Of a stretch of 64,000 nucleotides of DNA, positions 5,498 to 39,816 are shown piece by piece. The first letter of the stretch is position 1. Each line of letters begins with the position of its first letter. Under the pieces are notes generated by a model. It saw nothing but the letters and a program-made list of their open reading frames with translations. It made no database searches and was not told the origin of the DNA. Made by a program: the position numbers and the translations under genes. The DNA is from Octopus vulgaris (Eukaryota), in assembly GCA_951406725.2 (NCBI GenBank), contig OX597821.1:38006001-38070000 (forward strand), read 5' to 3'.

Positions 5498-5775
5498 TCA
5501 TAACCACATTCTTGCAATTTCGTCTTTTAGTAGATTGTATTTTTCAATCTTTTCTAGTTCTTTGTCACTTAAGTGTGCATCCCCAGGTATTGCAATATCT
5601 ATTGTTTTGGTTTCCCTTTTTCCTCTATCTACCACAACAATATCTGGTCTCCGAGCATCGATTAGTGAGTCACATTGGATTGTAAAATCCCACAATATTA
5701 TATATTCTTTGTGCTCAGTGACTCCTTCTGGCTCATGTTCGTACAATTTTCCATGCTCTGTTCAGACCGTACTTT
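5498..5775 (-). mobile_element. Dong/R4-like LINE endonuclease fragment
   Basis: ILWDFTIQCDSLIDARRPDIVVVD...IDIAIPGD...KELEKIEKY (PD..D REL motif). Confidence 0.8.
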
Positions 5776-14050: not shown

Positions 14051-14917
14051 TACATGATGTTCGGGCTAAATTTGATAAGTTTCTATGTCAGCTGTCTTTT
14101 CGGAAACAGCTTGGTGTATTGGTGAACAATCAACGGTGTTGGAGAGTATTCAGATTAAGGTCGTAGTTGAAAAAAAGTTAGATAATATGAAGAACTAAAA
14201 GTCATCTGAATATTGGAAAAGAGTTATTTTTATCATGAGGACACGCACCTGATATCAAAGTGCTTATATCATGACCGCTGATATCGATCCTCTGTAGACA
14301 CTGTGAAGGCTGTAAGACGTGCCGTGGACAGCTGCAATGGAGACTACGAATCTGTGGACAGCATGAAGGGACACAATAAGCATTCTGACATTGTCTGCAC
14401 ACCGAAATTCCTCCCCACATCTTTGAATAGGTCCGTCGGCTCTATTCCCACGGTTATGTGAAGCTCCTGGAGACCTTAACCAATCCCTGTCTAAAGAGGG
14501 TTGTTGCTGGAAGTCTATATGTGTAGCAGCAGGACACGAATCCTTGTCGTATTGCCGGAAAGTCAAAAGTGGTTGTGAGAATTTTTACGACTTCACTAGC
14601 CTCAATTTCTCGCTCTATAATTCCTCCGATTGTAACCTCATGAATTACTATCTGTGGGGTACGGTTGAGAAAGAAACCGTCTACTCTGTCGGCAGCACCA
14701 AAGCCAAACTGATAGCCAAGACCAAGGAAGTATTTAAAGATCTTCCCACGTTCTGAAGCTGTCTTGAGGCCGGGGTAGAAGCTGAGGGCGGCTGCATTGA
14801 GTAAACTGTTAATACCCAGCCATAATCTAATTGATATTTTAAAAATTGGGGGCGGGATGGCACATTGATTTCTTTCCCTTTTATGCAAACTGTTAAATTT
14901 ATTCCGAACACTTTGTA
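14051..14917 (+). mobile_element. Tc1/mariner-superfamily relic
   Basis: TIRs TACATGATGTTCGGGCTAAATTTGA / TTAAATTTATTCCGAACACTTTGTA. Residual QQDTNP and YNSSDCNLMNYYLWGTVE correspond to QQDGAP and SPDLNPLDYxxWG. Confidence 0.75.
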
Positions 14918-15244
14918 TATTGTTTAATTAATGACCATCGTCATATTCACATATATGCAAATTAAACTGAACTGCCAAATACGACACTCTCGAATTTGTG
15001 ACTGATCATTTTGTAGCTGAATGTTCTATGTAGTGATTGGGAAGATACCAGTTTAACCTTCCCTGAAAAGTGGTCAACAAACCGTGATTCACCCTCTCTC
15101 GAGACTCTTCCTTCCTTTCTTTTCCGCTCATCAAAAGCGTGGAAGGAAGGTGTTTCAATTTATGTTTCCCCTACAACTATGTCACACACACACACGCACA
15201 CACATACACACATACACACGTATATACATATTCATAAATATCAT

Positions 15245-15587: not shown

Positions 15588-15753
15588 AACCGCCTGTTTT
15601 ACGATCTAAACCTGTGGTGCCGAGGAATAAAATATCAGCTACAAACATGACGATTGAGTGGACTCCATGGAACCAACGAAATGGAGATATTGGTGACCCC
15701 CCAATCCTATGGTATACAATATGGGTGAAAACAGCAGCGGAAACTAATTTTAG
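15588..15753 (+). CDS. Exon 2: FN3 #1, N-half
   Basis: ttttattgtag acceptor. EPPVLRSKPVVPRNKISATNMTIEWTPWNQRNGDIGDPPILWYTIWVKTAAETNF. gtaagt donor. Phase 1 to 2 fits both neighbours. Confidence 0.92.
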
Positions 15754-16724
15754 GTAAGTTAGCAATATTGCTTTCTTTAGCATAAACAAAATTATAATGT
15801 TCTATACATAATGTACTTTAGACATATGTACGTTATATAGTTATGAAACATATTGTATAAATATGTACTTTCATCTTTTGGTACACTGTTGTTAAGTACC
15901 TTTCAAAAGGTGACGATGATGATATGAGACAGCTGATATCCTTGTAATGTTACGCATATCGCTTCCGAAGAGAAGATATATGTCTATATCTCTGAATTCA
16001 AAAGACAATAACTGTTTATACAAAATTCAATATTATTCCAATTTCCTAATGTTATGAAACATTTTCTTCCTTGTTCCTGCATACCAGGCCAATATTTTGC
16101 AGGAGAGGGTTTATCGTCAATAACATAGATGGATTATATTGAATGAGTATGTTTCAAAGAGATAACAGATATTCTATATCGGATTTGAAATCCAAATGCA
16201 CAAAGAATGGTTGATGTTTTTATACTCTACCAGCTCATCGCATTCTTCTGCATGGCATAGTCATAGAATTTAGTTTAAATACGTGATTATTCTATGGCAT
16301 ATTTTATCAAATCATAATTGTGAAACATCAATTTGACCCCAATAAGACAAATAGAAAGGATTGTTGTCCGTGTTAATATGTAAATACTTAAACTTATTTT
16401 TATGTAGGAATGATACTGTGGCGTTCATGGTTTTTCAAACAAATTCTTTTCACGCAATGAAAAGAATCACGTAGACAAAAATGTTATTCCTTCCATAACG
16501 AATACCATTTTTGTTCTAAACAAATACATGTCGTTTCGAGTAACCTTTTGTTCTTCCATATTTCCTATATACTAGATTTGATATTTTTTTTCTTACGAAC
16601 AGTCTTATATTTTAAAAAGATGGAGAAATATCTAAATGCATTAATGGTTTGCCAAATAAATGGACTGACCTCATTGTAGATTCAGCTTCCCATCAATCAC
16701 AGAGTGGTCTACAGTATCCGCATC

Positions 16725-16782
<58 letters not shown>

Positions 16783-17122
16783 ACGACAATAACTGCCATG
16801 GATCTAATAAATGAATATTTGTCGTGTATAACATATGACTTGTCATTAAAGAAGAATTTAGTCACCTAACTGTTGTGGTTTGAGTTCTTTTAACGTATGC
16901 AGTTACAGATTTAAAATGGGAGTGCCAATTTGATAAAAAATATTATAAAGATAACATAAGGGACTAAAGCCATCTGAATATGGCTAGGGACAGGGCAGGG
17001 TGGTGGGGGTGTTACTGTTGCATTTAGCCCCAGGCGAACATCGACGTCACCAGAAAGGCTCGACACCGTCACGGTGCCCTTAACCTGCAAAGGGAGGTAA
17101 TTCCCCGATGAAGCGGAAACCA

Positions 17123-17168
17123 CACACGGACCATGGTTTCAAGGTGTATTGCCTATCGTCGGCGTGTG
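17123..17168 (-). ncRNA. Type I hammerhead ribozyme (identical inverted copy)
   Basis: Exact reverse complement of 17617-17662. Predicted cut between 17129 and 17128. Confidence 0.8.
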
Positions 17169-17616
17169 GTAGGCTTCCGCTTCCTCGACGAATTCTCACT
17201 CTGCAGGATATTCATATATAGATTTTCAAGCAAAATACATTTGCTGATTTCGAAAATCTGTTCGAAAGCAATAATAATTCTCTAAAAGAGATATAGACAG
17301 TAACTGCTCGATAACATAAGGGACTAAAGCCATCTGAATATGGCTAGGGACAGTGACGGTGTCGAGCCTTTCTGGTGACGTCGATGTTCGCCTGGGGCTA
17401 AATGCAACAGTAACACCCCCACCACCCTGCCCTGTCCCTAGCCATATTCAGATGGCTTTAGTCCCTTATGTTATCGAGCAGTTACTGTCTATATCTCTTT
17501 TAGAGAATTATTATTGCTTTCGAACAGATTTTCGAAATCAGCAAATGTATTTTGCTTGAAAATCTATATATGAATATCCTGCAGAGTGAGAATTCGTCGA
17601 GGAAGCGGAAGCCTAC

Positions 17617-17662
17617 CACACGCCGACGATAGGCAATACACCTTGAAACCATGGTCCGTGTG
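17617..17662 (+). ncRNA. Type I hammerhead ribozyme (short palindromic helix III)
   Basis: Helix I CACACG (17617-22) / CGTGTG (17657-62); core CCGACGA (CUGANGA with U4C); helix II tAGG-caataca-CCTt; GAAA; helix III C-CATG-G; GUC cleavage triplet, predicted cut after 17656. Confidence 0.8.
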
Positions 17663-18370
17663 TGGTTTCCGCTTCATCGGGGAATTACCTCCCTTTGCAG
17701 GTTAAGGGCACCGTGACGGTGTCGAGCCTTTCTGGTGACGTCGATGTTCGCCTGGGGCTAAATGCAACAGTAACACCCCCACCACCCTGCCCTGTCCCTA
17801 GCCATATTCAGATGGCTTTAGTCCCTTATGTTATCGAGCAGTTACTGTCTATATCTCTTTTAGAGAATTATTATTGCGATTATAAAGATAATTATTACGA
17901 AGTTGATATACACTAAGTATATCAATTCACGGCCAAATTTGAAGTCGGATTTAGCTTTTGCTTACTTTTTGTCATGAAATAATGCTTTATTCTGACATTT
18001 GATATTCTGATAGGCAATGGTTAGATACCATGTTCAAATGAATTTAGTTGATTATACCCGTTGCTACTTACATATTTTCCTACTTCAGGCGGTGAGGAGG
18101 AAACGCTGTTCTTGGCTTCAAGCCATGGAACCAGATATAAAAAAGGATAAAACTAAATAAAGTTATTTTTGTTCGATGCTCAACTACTGATTCTCCCCTT
18201 CTCAGGTTGGTAATAAACGCCACCATAATGAATGTCTTTACAATTGATTGACATAGCATTTCCCAAAACACACTTTGGTACAATTCGTACATTTCATCCC
18301 AAACGGATGTTAACCATTATAGCTTCTATGATACAAATTATAATGATTAATATTATTATATTATTTGCAG

Positions 18371-18543
18371 GATGATGGGTCTCATTTACCACACGTTCTG
18401 TCGTGAAAAAAGAGTATGTAGCCATATCATTCAAGAACTTCGACCAAGTACACGATACAAAATCTATATTGTTACAAGAAGAGATGGTGATGGAGGTTCG
18501 GGCCCACCAGGACCAAGTATATTTGCGAAAACGTTATGCAGCA
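18371..18543 (+). CDS. Exon 3: FN3 #1, C-half
   Basis: ttatttgcag acceptor. MMGLIYHTFCREKRVCSHIIQELRPSTRYKIYIVTRRDGDGGSGPPGPSIFAKTLCS contains the LxPxTxY motif and resembles the TRPGEGGTGxPGP motif of type IIB RPTPs and Tie. gtaagt donor, phase 2 to 1. Confidence 0.92.
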
Positions 18544-18579
18544 GTAAGTACTTAAGATAAAAAAAATTATTGTATATAT

Positions 18580-19490
<911 letters not shown>

Positions 19491-38984: not shown

Positions 38985-39816
38985 TGGGTAAAGAAAAGAA
39001 TTCATGGACAATTTCATAGGGATGTTGAAGATAAGATAGAGAAAAAAGGTGGCTGTTGATGACTAAAAGCGATTTAAAACCGGAAACGGAGACTCTCATC
39101 TGTGCTTCCCAAGAGCAAGCACTAAGAATAAACTACATAAAATACAGAATAGACAACACACCAGGAAGTGATAAGTGCAGAATCTGTGGACAAAATGGTG
39201 AAACCGTATGGCATATTACCAGTCAATGTACACCACTAGCCCAGAAGGAATATAAGAGGTGCCACGACAATACAGCAAGGGTTGTCCATTGGACATTTTG
39301 CAACAAATATGAACTTGACAGAGCAAAAAATTGGTACGACCATAAACCCGAAGGCATCATCGAAAACGATAATGCAAAGATCCTGTGGGATTTTATGATT
39401 CAGTGTAACCATGAGATAGAGACTACGAAACCAGACAGTCTTAATTGAGAAAGAAAGTAAACTATGCTGGATCATAGACATAGCATGTCCAGCTGACAAC
39501 AAGGTATGCGATAAAGATGAAAGAAAAGTTGAGAGATATGACAGGTTAGCTTGGGAAGTTTAGCAGTTGTGGTCGATGAAAAAGGTAGCAGTACTAATAA
39601 TTGTCGGAGCCGGGGAACAGTGAGTAAAAATCTTGAGAAATACATGGAACCAATAGAGGCTGCCATAAGAGTGGAGCACTTGCACAAAACAGCACTGCTT
39701 GGAACCGCTCGAATATTCCGGAAGGTGCTCGAAAAATAACGGGTGTTACTTTAGTTCCCTGGTAGTCAACAGCTGACACCGTAGTATATCTCCAGCGTTA
39801 GAAGCGGTGTAAATGC

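What the first reader, a model, noticed from the sequence alone, without database searches (positions are those of the whole stretch)
17617..17662. Variant type I hammerhead with U4C core and a palindromic CCAUGG helix III
Seen: CACACG-CCGACGA-uAGGcaauacaCCUu-GAAA-CCAUGG-UC-CGUGUG has all hammerhead elements in the correct order. It has C at core position 4 and a U.U pair at the base of helix II. Helix III is very short and self-complementary. Established: such short-helix-III hammerheads in Penelope and satellite repeats cleave efficiently as dimers. Inference: cleavage would be favoured in multimeric transcripts. The + copy is sense to the host pre-mRNA, about 700 nt upstream of exon 3, so it could cut intron 2.
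Basis: partly seen in the sequence, partly recalled or inferred. Interest (0 to 1): 0.8.

Follow-up and report, generated by a model that had tools for sequence, protein, structure and literature searches.

The report
Octopus retrozyme with variant hammerhead core
The motif is a hammerhead-type RNA, predicted to cut itself, with one normally fixed core letter changed across its whole family; it sits in a 360-base, highly repeated, likely transcribed non-coding element of an octopus that was likely pasted into this intron by Penelope-type transposon enzymes, and here it is predicted to be locked in a hairpin rather than to cut the host gene's transcript.

Summary
The motif is exactly as described, and a descriptor finds it in 1 of 100 shuffled windows. 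It is one part of a 360-nt non-coding repeat unit. The unit is inserted in an intron of an octopus receptor phosphatase gene as 1.46 direct units plus a 404-nt inverted copy, inside a 13-bp target duplication. One arm carries an extra 42-47-nt tail, the Penelope insertion signature. Public contigs show thousands-fold excess depth, 360-nt cyclic contigs in 4 of 4 runs laid (one with spliced RNA), and C4 fixed: the only core variant above 5% is the free position N7. It is most likely an animal non-LTR retrozyme family with a weakened U4C core that CUGA-based searches and Rfam miss. Cleavage and circularity are untested. U4C and the U·U pair are each published. This scan noted U4C in phage hammerheads and a similar Penelope-type insertion in another animal, but not this sequence.

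The parts
16942..16954 (.). left target-site duplication, 13 bp, AT-rich; its last 5 bp also match the element end
   Evidence: exact 13-mer, present only twice in the window
16950..17353 (-). inverted arm, 404 nt = 1.12 units, exact reverse complement of 17432-17835
17123..17168 (-). second hammerhead copy, identical to the + copy
17347..17353 (.). head-to-head junction of the two arms; 1 nt exact overlap, 5 of 7 letters shared
17353..17877 (+). direct arm, 525 nt = 1.46 copies of the 360-nt unit (17353-17517 repeats exactly at 17713-17877)
17518..17877 (+). one full 360-nt unit, about 46% GC, no coding signal; closes head-to-tail in 4 of 4 runs laid
17575..17704 (+). long rod that extends helix I and carries the hammerhead at its tip; the family variants at 17575 and 17704 are a compensatory pair in the predicted fold
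   Evidence: (z -6.8 for 17560-17709)
17617..17662 (+). type I hammerhead: helix I 6 bp, core with C4, helix II with U·U at its base, palindromic helix III; predicted cut 17656|17657
17836..17877 (+). 'tail' of 42 nt (47 if the 5-nt overlap belongs to the target) present at the 3' end of the direct arm only
   Evidence: compared with PMC3846280, PMC8557442, PMC11167929
17879..17891 (.). right target-site duplication; one unmatched G at 17878
   Evidence: junction matched with no difference by an X2 contig covering 17851-18113
15588..15753 (+). upstream host exon (receptor tyrosine phosphatase, fibronectin type III region)
   Evidence: joined to the next exon in run X1
18371..18543 (+). downstream host exon

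Best explanation
This is a variant type I hammerhead (C for U at core position 4) inside a 360-nt, high-copy, non-coding repeat unit, most likely an octopus non-LTR retrozyme that is likely transcribed, predicted to self-cleave slowly, and likely copied into new sites by Penelope-like reverse transcriptase and endonuclease supplied in trans. Shown: the motif, the unit, the tandem-plus-inverted layout, the target duplication, the tail, family-wide C4, head-to-tail closure in four runs. Inferred cycle: (1) tandem copies are transcribed as multimers. (2) The hammerhead cuts at 17656|17657, probably slowly and best as a dimer through the palindromic helix III or with protein help, and some monomers are ligated to 360-nt circles. 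(3) A Penelope protein makes a staggered cut in AT-rich DNA, and both DNA ends prime reverse transcription at two internal start points about 42-47 nt apart. (4) On a circle or an uncut multimer both cDNAs run through the cut site and beyond one unit (404 and 525 nt) and are joined head to head. This copy is very recent and, in the host pre-mRNA, is predicted to form a 404-bp duplex that silences its own ribozyme; any effect on the host would come from the double-stranded RNA, not from cleavage.
For: Layout matches the Penelope pattern of partial tandem, adjacent inverted 5'-truncated copy, tail at one end and target duplication (passages of PMC3846280 and PMC8557442). A purified Penelope protein cuts and extends both strands at AT-rich sites and starts at two internal RNA sites (PMC11167929). 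Unit size, GC, long target duplication and lack of coding match animal retrozymes (PMC7229834); in DNA-guess run X2, summed depth is 1.8e5-1.1e6 on the unit against about 36 on the flank. Of 360 positions, 6 vary at >=5% in X2; the only one in the ribozyme is N7 (C>U, 59%), and C4 has no variant row. All 6 keep the predicted pairing or are unpaired, and two are compensatory; random placement gives both in 0.4% of 100,000 trials. The joint 17877->17518 appears in 4 of 4 runs. X1 and X5 each hold one 390-nt contig (360 + 30 overlap) with 0 and 1 differences. X1 has the spliced host mRNA and no cover of the intron flank, and its contig carries A17610, which is 9% of depth in X2, so random DNA carry-over is unlikely. 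Loop 1 and the start of loop 2 resemble the Rfam HH9 consensus shown. X2 depth rises 2.8-fold across the predicted cut (263k to 732k), as expected if many copies were made from cut RNA. U4C and U10.1·U11.1 are each reported in active natural hammerheads (PMC3088659; PMC7229834).
Against: No cleavage data. U4C considerably lowers activity in vitro (PMC3088659), and here it is combined with U·U. The active fold lies 8.8 kcal/mol above the best fold (4.8-7.8 for three U4 controls), and a slipped helix I is preferred (P of active helix I 0.27). Eight of nine predicted frog retrozyme dimers did not cleave in vitro (bioRxiv 10.64898/2026.07.22.740005). Rfam does not recognise the motif. A cyclic contig cannot tell a circular RNA from a tandem transcript, contigs give no strand, and the RNA label of X1 and X5 is a guess. 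Summed contig depth is no copy number, swings about two-fold locally, and related families sharing only the 3' part could produce the step. The compensatory pair has predicted probability of only 0.42 and 0.14 in the two haplotypes, and the test was chosen after seeing the data. No autonomous Penelope partner with a matching end could be searched. The tail is a little longer than the published 30-40 nt.
Confidence: 0.72

Rival explanations
1. The element is a non-autonomous Penelope parasite whose hammerhead is a relic: U4C plus U·U abolished cutting, the family spreads on uncut multimeric transcripts, and C4 is fixed only because the founder had it.
For: Two weakening changes; the inactive slipped fold is preferred. 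Both arms run intact through the cut site. Hammerhead mutants did not block insertion by a Penelope protein in vitro. The family is young, with only 6 variable sites at >=5%, so an intact core may reflect age.
Against: The one core variant is at N7; C4 lies in a CpG yet stays fixed while the CpG three bases away is 59% changed; depth steps up at the cut site; cyclic contigs occur in RNA-guess runs. U4C kept enough activity in vivo for viroid infectivity (PMC3088659).
Confidence: 0.2
2. The insertion is only the truncated pseudo-LTR end of an autonomous Penelope element, not a separate retrozyme family.
For: The layout is that of Penelope insertions. Pairs of hammerheads 100-700 bp apart on opposite strands were ascribed to truncated Penelope elements (PMC4209133). 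Octopus has recent Penelope families.
Against: The unit repeats head to tail with a 360-nt period and no ORF between copies, and it closes on itself in 4 of 4 runs. A truncated autonomous copy would show the end of the ORF upstream. Helix I of 6 bp with an internal loop is the canonical retrozyme form, not the minimal Penelope form.
Confidence: 0.05
3. One reading: the + copy cuts the host pre-mRNA in this intron and so affects the phosphatase gene.
For: The + copy is sense to the host gene and 714 nt upstream of the next exon.
Against: Predicted 404-bp duplex with the earlier-transcribed antisense arm; helix probabilities 0.000; 88.9 kcal/mol penalty; no second sense ribozyme in cis; spliced mRNA across the intron is seen in X1, though whether that animal carries this insertion is unknown.
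Confidence: 0.03

Closest known systems
Animal non-LTR retrozymes (Cervera and de la Pena 2020, PMC7229834; Li, Clavereau and Pollet, bioRxiv 10.64898/2026.07.22.740005)
   Same: Unit of 150-450 nt (mussel 350-390), GC under 50%, non-coding, tandem, type I hammerhead, target duplication longer than 4 bp, highly paired predicted circle, high copy number.
   Different: Core C4 instead of U4 across the family; only one ribozyme per strand at this locus, so it fails the 'two complete units' test for an active copy; an inverted arm and tail are documented here; no cephalopod case turned up.
Axolotl HHR_Amex2 hammerhead (PMC7229834)
   Same: Helix III of two pairs with a tetraloop, U·U at the base of helix II, unit about 350 nt; weak as monomer (22% in 1 h), much better as dimer.
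   Different: No core change is mentioned for it in the text read; this one adds U4C. No sequence comparison was possible (supplement unreadable).
Endonuclease-bearing Penelope-like elements (PMC3846280, PMC8557442, PMC11167929)
   Same: Partial tandem, head-to-head inverted 5'-truncated copy, tail at one end, target duplication in AT-rich DNA, hammerhead upstream of the 3' ends.
   Different: No RT or GIY-YIG ORF; 360-nt period; tail 42-47 nt against 30-40; target duplication 13 bp (8 if the overlap is excluded) against 8-10 in Adineta.
U4C viroid hammerhead variant (Ambros and Flores 1998, known to me only as cited in PMC3088659)
   Same: Same core substitution, described as much less active in vitro but sufficient in vivo.
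   Different: There it is a rare viroid variant; here it is the family consensus of a chromosomal repeat.
Unassigned U4-core type I hammerhead family in metagenome contigs (L007, L019, L045, L111 and others)
   Same: Same palindromic helix III sequence and type I topology; weak Rfam HH9 hits.
   Different: 16 of 16 structured hits have U4 and a paired helix II base; none of 56 C4 pattern matches passed the structure filter; no sequence similarity to the unit outside the searched motif.

Membership tests
Type I hammerhead ribozyme | Three helices around the core, helix I open | tested here: met
   helix I 6 bp, helix II 3 bp plus U·U, helix III 2 bp (8 bp in a dimer)
Type I hammerhead ribozyme | Strict core C3 U4 G5 A6 N7 G8 A9, G12 A13 A14, A15.1 U16.1 H17 | tested here: not met
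   C at position 4; the other positions match. Under the rule in PMC3088659 it is a candidate core variant until activity is measured, so it is filed as a variant, not a strict member.
Type I hammerhead ribozyme | Pair 10.1-11.1 closing helix II | tested here: not met
   U·U; an alternative register (extra U, then A-U) has predicted probability 0.002 against 0.048. U·U is a published tolerated mismatch.
Type I hammerhead ribozyme | Loop 1 / loop 2 tertiary-contact letters | tested here: inconclusive
   UAC before helix I, U after it and loop 2 starting CAA resemble the HH9 consensus printed; compared by eye only
Rfam hammerhead clan CL00010 | Covariance-model score | tested here: not met
   no hit
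Type I hammerhead ribozyme | Site-specific self-cleavage | not testable with these tools
   only a hint: 2.8-fold depth step at the predicted cut in X2
Animal non-LTR retrozyme | Non-coding unit of 150-450 nt, GC under 50% | tested here: met
   360 nt, about 46% GC; 4 stop-to-stop frames gave no Pfam hit below E 0.05
Animal non-LTR retrozyme | Head-to-tail repetition and many copies | tested here: met
   1.46 units here; joint back by 360 in 4 of 4 runs; depth 7,000-31,000 times the flank in X2, a rough figure and not a copy number
Animal non-LTR retrozyme | Target duplication longer than 4 bp | tested here: met
   13 bp
Animal non-LTR retrozyme | Two consecutive units with complete ribozymes (criterion for an active copy) | tested here: not met
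   one per strand at this locus; other loci could not be seen
Animal non-LTR retrozyme | Transcribed | tested here: inconclusive
   full-unit contigs in X1 (spliced RNA present) and X5, with an allele that is minor in X2 DNA; the run type is a guess
Animal non-LTR retrozyme | Accumulates as circular RNA | not testable with these tools
   390-nt cyclic contigs fit a circle or a tandem transcript
Penelope-like element (autonomous) | RT plus GIY-YIG ORF between pseudo-LTRs | tested here: not met
Penelope-type insertion | Partial tandem, head-to-head inverted copy, tail at one end, target duplication | tested here: met
   tail 42-47 nt, slightly over the published range
Penelope-type insertion | Sequence shared with the end of an autonomous partner | not testable with these tools
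   no genome is held for this window and no repeat library is on hand

The most novel reading that the evidence does not exclude
A whole animal retrozyme family has been selected for a slowed U4C ribozyme so that its 360-nt RNA persists as a circle. Penelope enzymes then copy it two ways: short copies running from the internal start to the ribozyme cut, and longer-than-unit copies rolled off the circle from both ends of one DNA break, as frozen at this locus. This would be direct molecular evidence for circle-templated, Penelope-driven retrozyme transposition, and would mean that CUGA-based surveys undercount animal retrozymes.
Probability: 0.3. Interest if true: 0.7.

Novelty: new variant of a known kind. 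Interest (0 to 1): 0.45.

Why it matters
That animal retrozymes are moved by Penelope enzymes has rested on co-occurrence and phylogeny (bioRxiv 10.64898/2026.07.22.740005) and on a proposed circle-templated model (PMC7229834). This one young insertion carries the Penelope end signature on a purely non-coding unit, with two longer-than-unit arms, and is identical to a contig in a spliced-RNA run. That makes it a ready substrate for the existing in vitro Penelope assay. A family-wide U4C core would also show that a 'forbidden' core change can be the norm in an animal repeat of very high copy number, invisible to Rfam and to CUGA descriptors. Each ingredient is separately known, so the surprise is moderate.

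Tried and rejected
Rfam at gathering score on the whole window: 0 matches. Rfam at E<=10 on 1,051 and 101 bases: only microRNA-hairpin and frameshift-element matches far below threshold, taken as chance hairpin hits. No whole genome is held, so copies could not be listed. No other copy of the element in the 64 kb. Metagenome pattern scan (119 loci from 9 of 64 parts): no relative of the unit; 16 of 119 structured hits, all U4; 0 of 56 C4 matches structured. Viral scan: 4 matches, 0 structured. No RNA polymerase III A or B box on the + strand by simple patterns, so the promoter is unknown. The run search listed no holder on record as RNA, which is no evidence either way. Assembly fold-back artefact: rejected because of the target duplication, the unequal arms and a contig matching the right junction; the left junction was not tested. 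Single-copy decay as the source of C4: rejected. Not held: Lunse et al. 2017 on Penelope hammerhead variants and Ambros and Flores 1998; the first may already list a C4 family. The supplement of PMC7229834 was unreadable and the supplements of the 2026 preprint were not seen; either could hold an octopus family. PMC11014351 had nothing relevant. The circle shuffle test (z -5.9, 0 of 100) used a unit that included the arm junction and differed by 2 nt; the correct unit folds at -118.2 against -119.0 kcal/mol.

Full report
Observation. The 46-nt motif is present as written. Helix I has 6 pairs, the core is C3 C4 G5 A6 C7 G8 A9 (17623-17629), helix II has U·U plus 3 pairs and a 7-nt loop, and GAAA is followed by a perfect 8-nt palindrome (17648-17655) and C17 at 17656. 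A descriptor relaxed at position 4 hits only this copy and an identical copy on the minus strand at 17123-17168; 1 of 100 shuffled windows gave a hit. Rfam does not recognise it, while 4 of 4 U4-core control loci gave weak Hammerhead_HH9 hits.

Host. An exon of the window is 100% identical over 88 residues to P0002, which a source names receptor-type tyrosine-protein phosphatase T of Octopus bimaculoides (3 hits among 58 candidates). Its exons map along the + strand, starting at residue 266, so 'intron 2' is a window-local count. The motif lies in intron 15754-18370, 714 nt before the next exon.

The element. The motif sits in a 924-nt insertion between two copies of a 13-bp AT-rich sequence (16942-16954 and 17879-17891) that occurs nowhere else in the window. 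The right part (17353-17877) is 1.46 head-to-tail copies of a 360-nt unit. The left part (16950-17353) is an exact 404-nt reverse complement of 17432-17835. The arms meet head to head with a short imperfect overlap, and their 3' ends differ by 42-47 nt. The unit is about 46% GC, shows no coding signal, and folds as a circle far better than shuffles (with the 2-nt caveat given under Tried and rejected). The ribozyme is at the tip of a long rod. Partial tandem, adjacent inverted truncated copy, a 30-40-nt tail at one end and a target duplication are the described pattern of Penelope-like insertions (passages of PMC3846280 and PMC8557442). A purified Penelope protein nicks and extends both strands at AT-rich DNA and starts copying at two internal RNA sites that bound the tail (PMC11167929, parts 1-2 of 4). 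Octopus genomes have Penelope families, including recent ones (passages).

The family. Twenty of 24 listed runs, from 10 studies and three organism labels, hold 65-100% of the unit's sampled words. I laid 4 of them on 17518-18560 (all are contigs). In X2 (DNA guess) summed depth is 1.8e5-1.1e6 on the unit and about 36 on the flank. That points to thousands of copies but is not a copy number. One X2 contig matches the right junction with no difference. Six of 360 positions vary at 5% or more in X2. The only one in the ribozyme is N7 (59%). C4 has no variant row in X2 and is C in the full-unit contigs of X1, X5 and X20, so U4C is the family state among copies at least 80% alike. All six variants fit the predicted fold, and 17575 with 17704 is compensatory. 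Random placement does both in 0.4% of trials, but the test is post hoc and that pair has probability 0.42 and 0.14 in the two haplotypes. All 4 runs show the joint 17877 back to 17518. X1 and X5 each hold a single 390-nt contig, a closed cycle of the unit with 0 and 1 differences. X1 also holds the spliced host mRNA and does not cover the intron flank. With thousands of copies, trace DNA could give such depth; against that, both cycles carry A17610, which is 9% of X2 depth, whereas X20 carries the alternative alleles that are common in X2. I read this as transcription of a young subfamily identical to this copy; strand and circularity are not shown. X2 depth rises 2.8-fold across the predicted cut and averages 3.4-fold higher on its 3' side. 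That fits many copies made from cut RNA, but related families that share only the 3' part (loose ends) could also cause it.

Can it cut? Not tested. For: all other core letters, plausible loop contacts (by eye), the palindrome (dimer helix -11.2 kcal/mol), N7-only variation. U4C is described as much less active in vitro yet sufficient in vivo in a viroid, and U10.1·U11.1 as the best-tolerated mismatch (passages of PMC3088659). The axolotl HHR_Amex2 has the same helix II and III build and cuts weakly as monomer, better as dimer (PMC7229834, parts 2-4 of 6). Against: two weakening changes together; an active fold 8.8 kcal/mol above a slipped alternative (controls 4.8-7.8); low activity of minimal Penelope hammerheads even as dimers (PMC4209133, parts 1-2 of 4 and part of the supplement); and 8 of 9 frog dimers inactive (bioRxiv 10.64898/2026.07.22.740005, parts 1-3 of 5). 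I put slow but real cleavage at about 0.65.

Host intron. The + transcript meets the antisense arm first and folds into a 404-bp perfect duplex (-857 kcal/mol for 1,001 nt). All hammerhead helices have probability 0.000 and the active fold costs 88.9 kcal/mol. The minus copy is likewise preceded by its antisense. Cutting of the intron is therefore unlikely; a long duplex could instead draw editing or small-RNA processing (inference from general knowledge, not tested).

Mechanism, committed. Multimeric transcripts are trimmed slowly by the hammerhead, some monomers close to circles, and Penelope proteins copy the RNA from both ends of a staggered DNA break. Both arms exceed one unit and cross the cut site intact (shown), so the template was a circle or an uncut multimer (inferred); these data cannot tell which.

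Novelty. Searches for hammerhead + U4C returned one paper. Octopus + hammerhead ribozyme (5 papers, 4 listed) and cephalopod + Penelope + ribozyme (4 papers, 3 listed) showed no title or abstract start on a cephalopod retrozyme. Two cephalopod repeat papers do not mention ribozymes in the main text. Lunse et al. 2017 and two sets of supplements could not be read and may bear on this. The same helix III occurs in an unrelated U4 family, so the palindrome is ordinary. Earlier notes of this scan report U4C in several phage hammerheads and a Penelope-type tandem insertion in another animal (unchecked), and no look-alike of this sequence. Verdict: a new variant of a known kind, a U4C retrozyme family in octopus with a clear Penelope insertion signature; interest 0.45.

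Noticed in passing
run contigs laid on window 17705-17830 (loose ends in X1, X2, X20): Diverged sequences share pieces of the unit's 3' part, suggesting related repeat families with a common 3' region, possibly including the autonomous partner.
   Followed up: no
L007, L015, L019, L028, L030, L042, L045, L054, L065, L066, L068, L087, L096, L105, L106, L111: An unassigned family of canonical type I hammerheads with the same palindromic helix III; below Rfam gathering score in the 4 tested; no tandem period within the 0.3-1 kb held.
   Followed up: partly
window 17615-17666: Helix I can slip by two bases because of a CA/UG repeat, giving a 9-bp inactive register that is preferred in the predicted ensemble; it could act as an off state.
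   Followed up: partly
window 39035-39448 (+) and 5498-5761 (-): Fragments that look like the C-terminal part of a non-LTR retrotransposon protein; a weak zf-RVT hit (E 0.0036) for the first, none for the second.
   Followed up: no
window 14454-14927 (-) and 18757-19241 (-): Broken reading frames that resemble Tc1/mariner transposase by recall; no Pfam hit for the two stretches scanned.
   Followed up: no
window 4-49710 (+): At least 11 exons of a kringle- and fibronectin-containing receptor tyrosine phosphatase (P0002 residues 266-998).
   Followed up: partly
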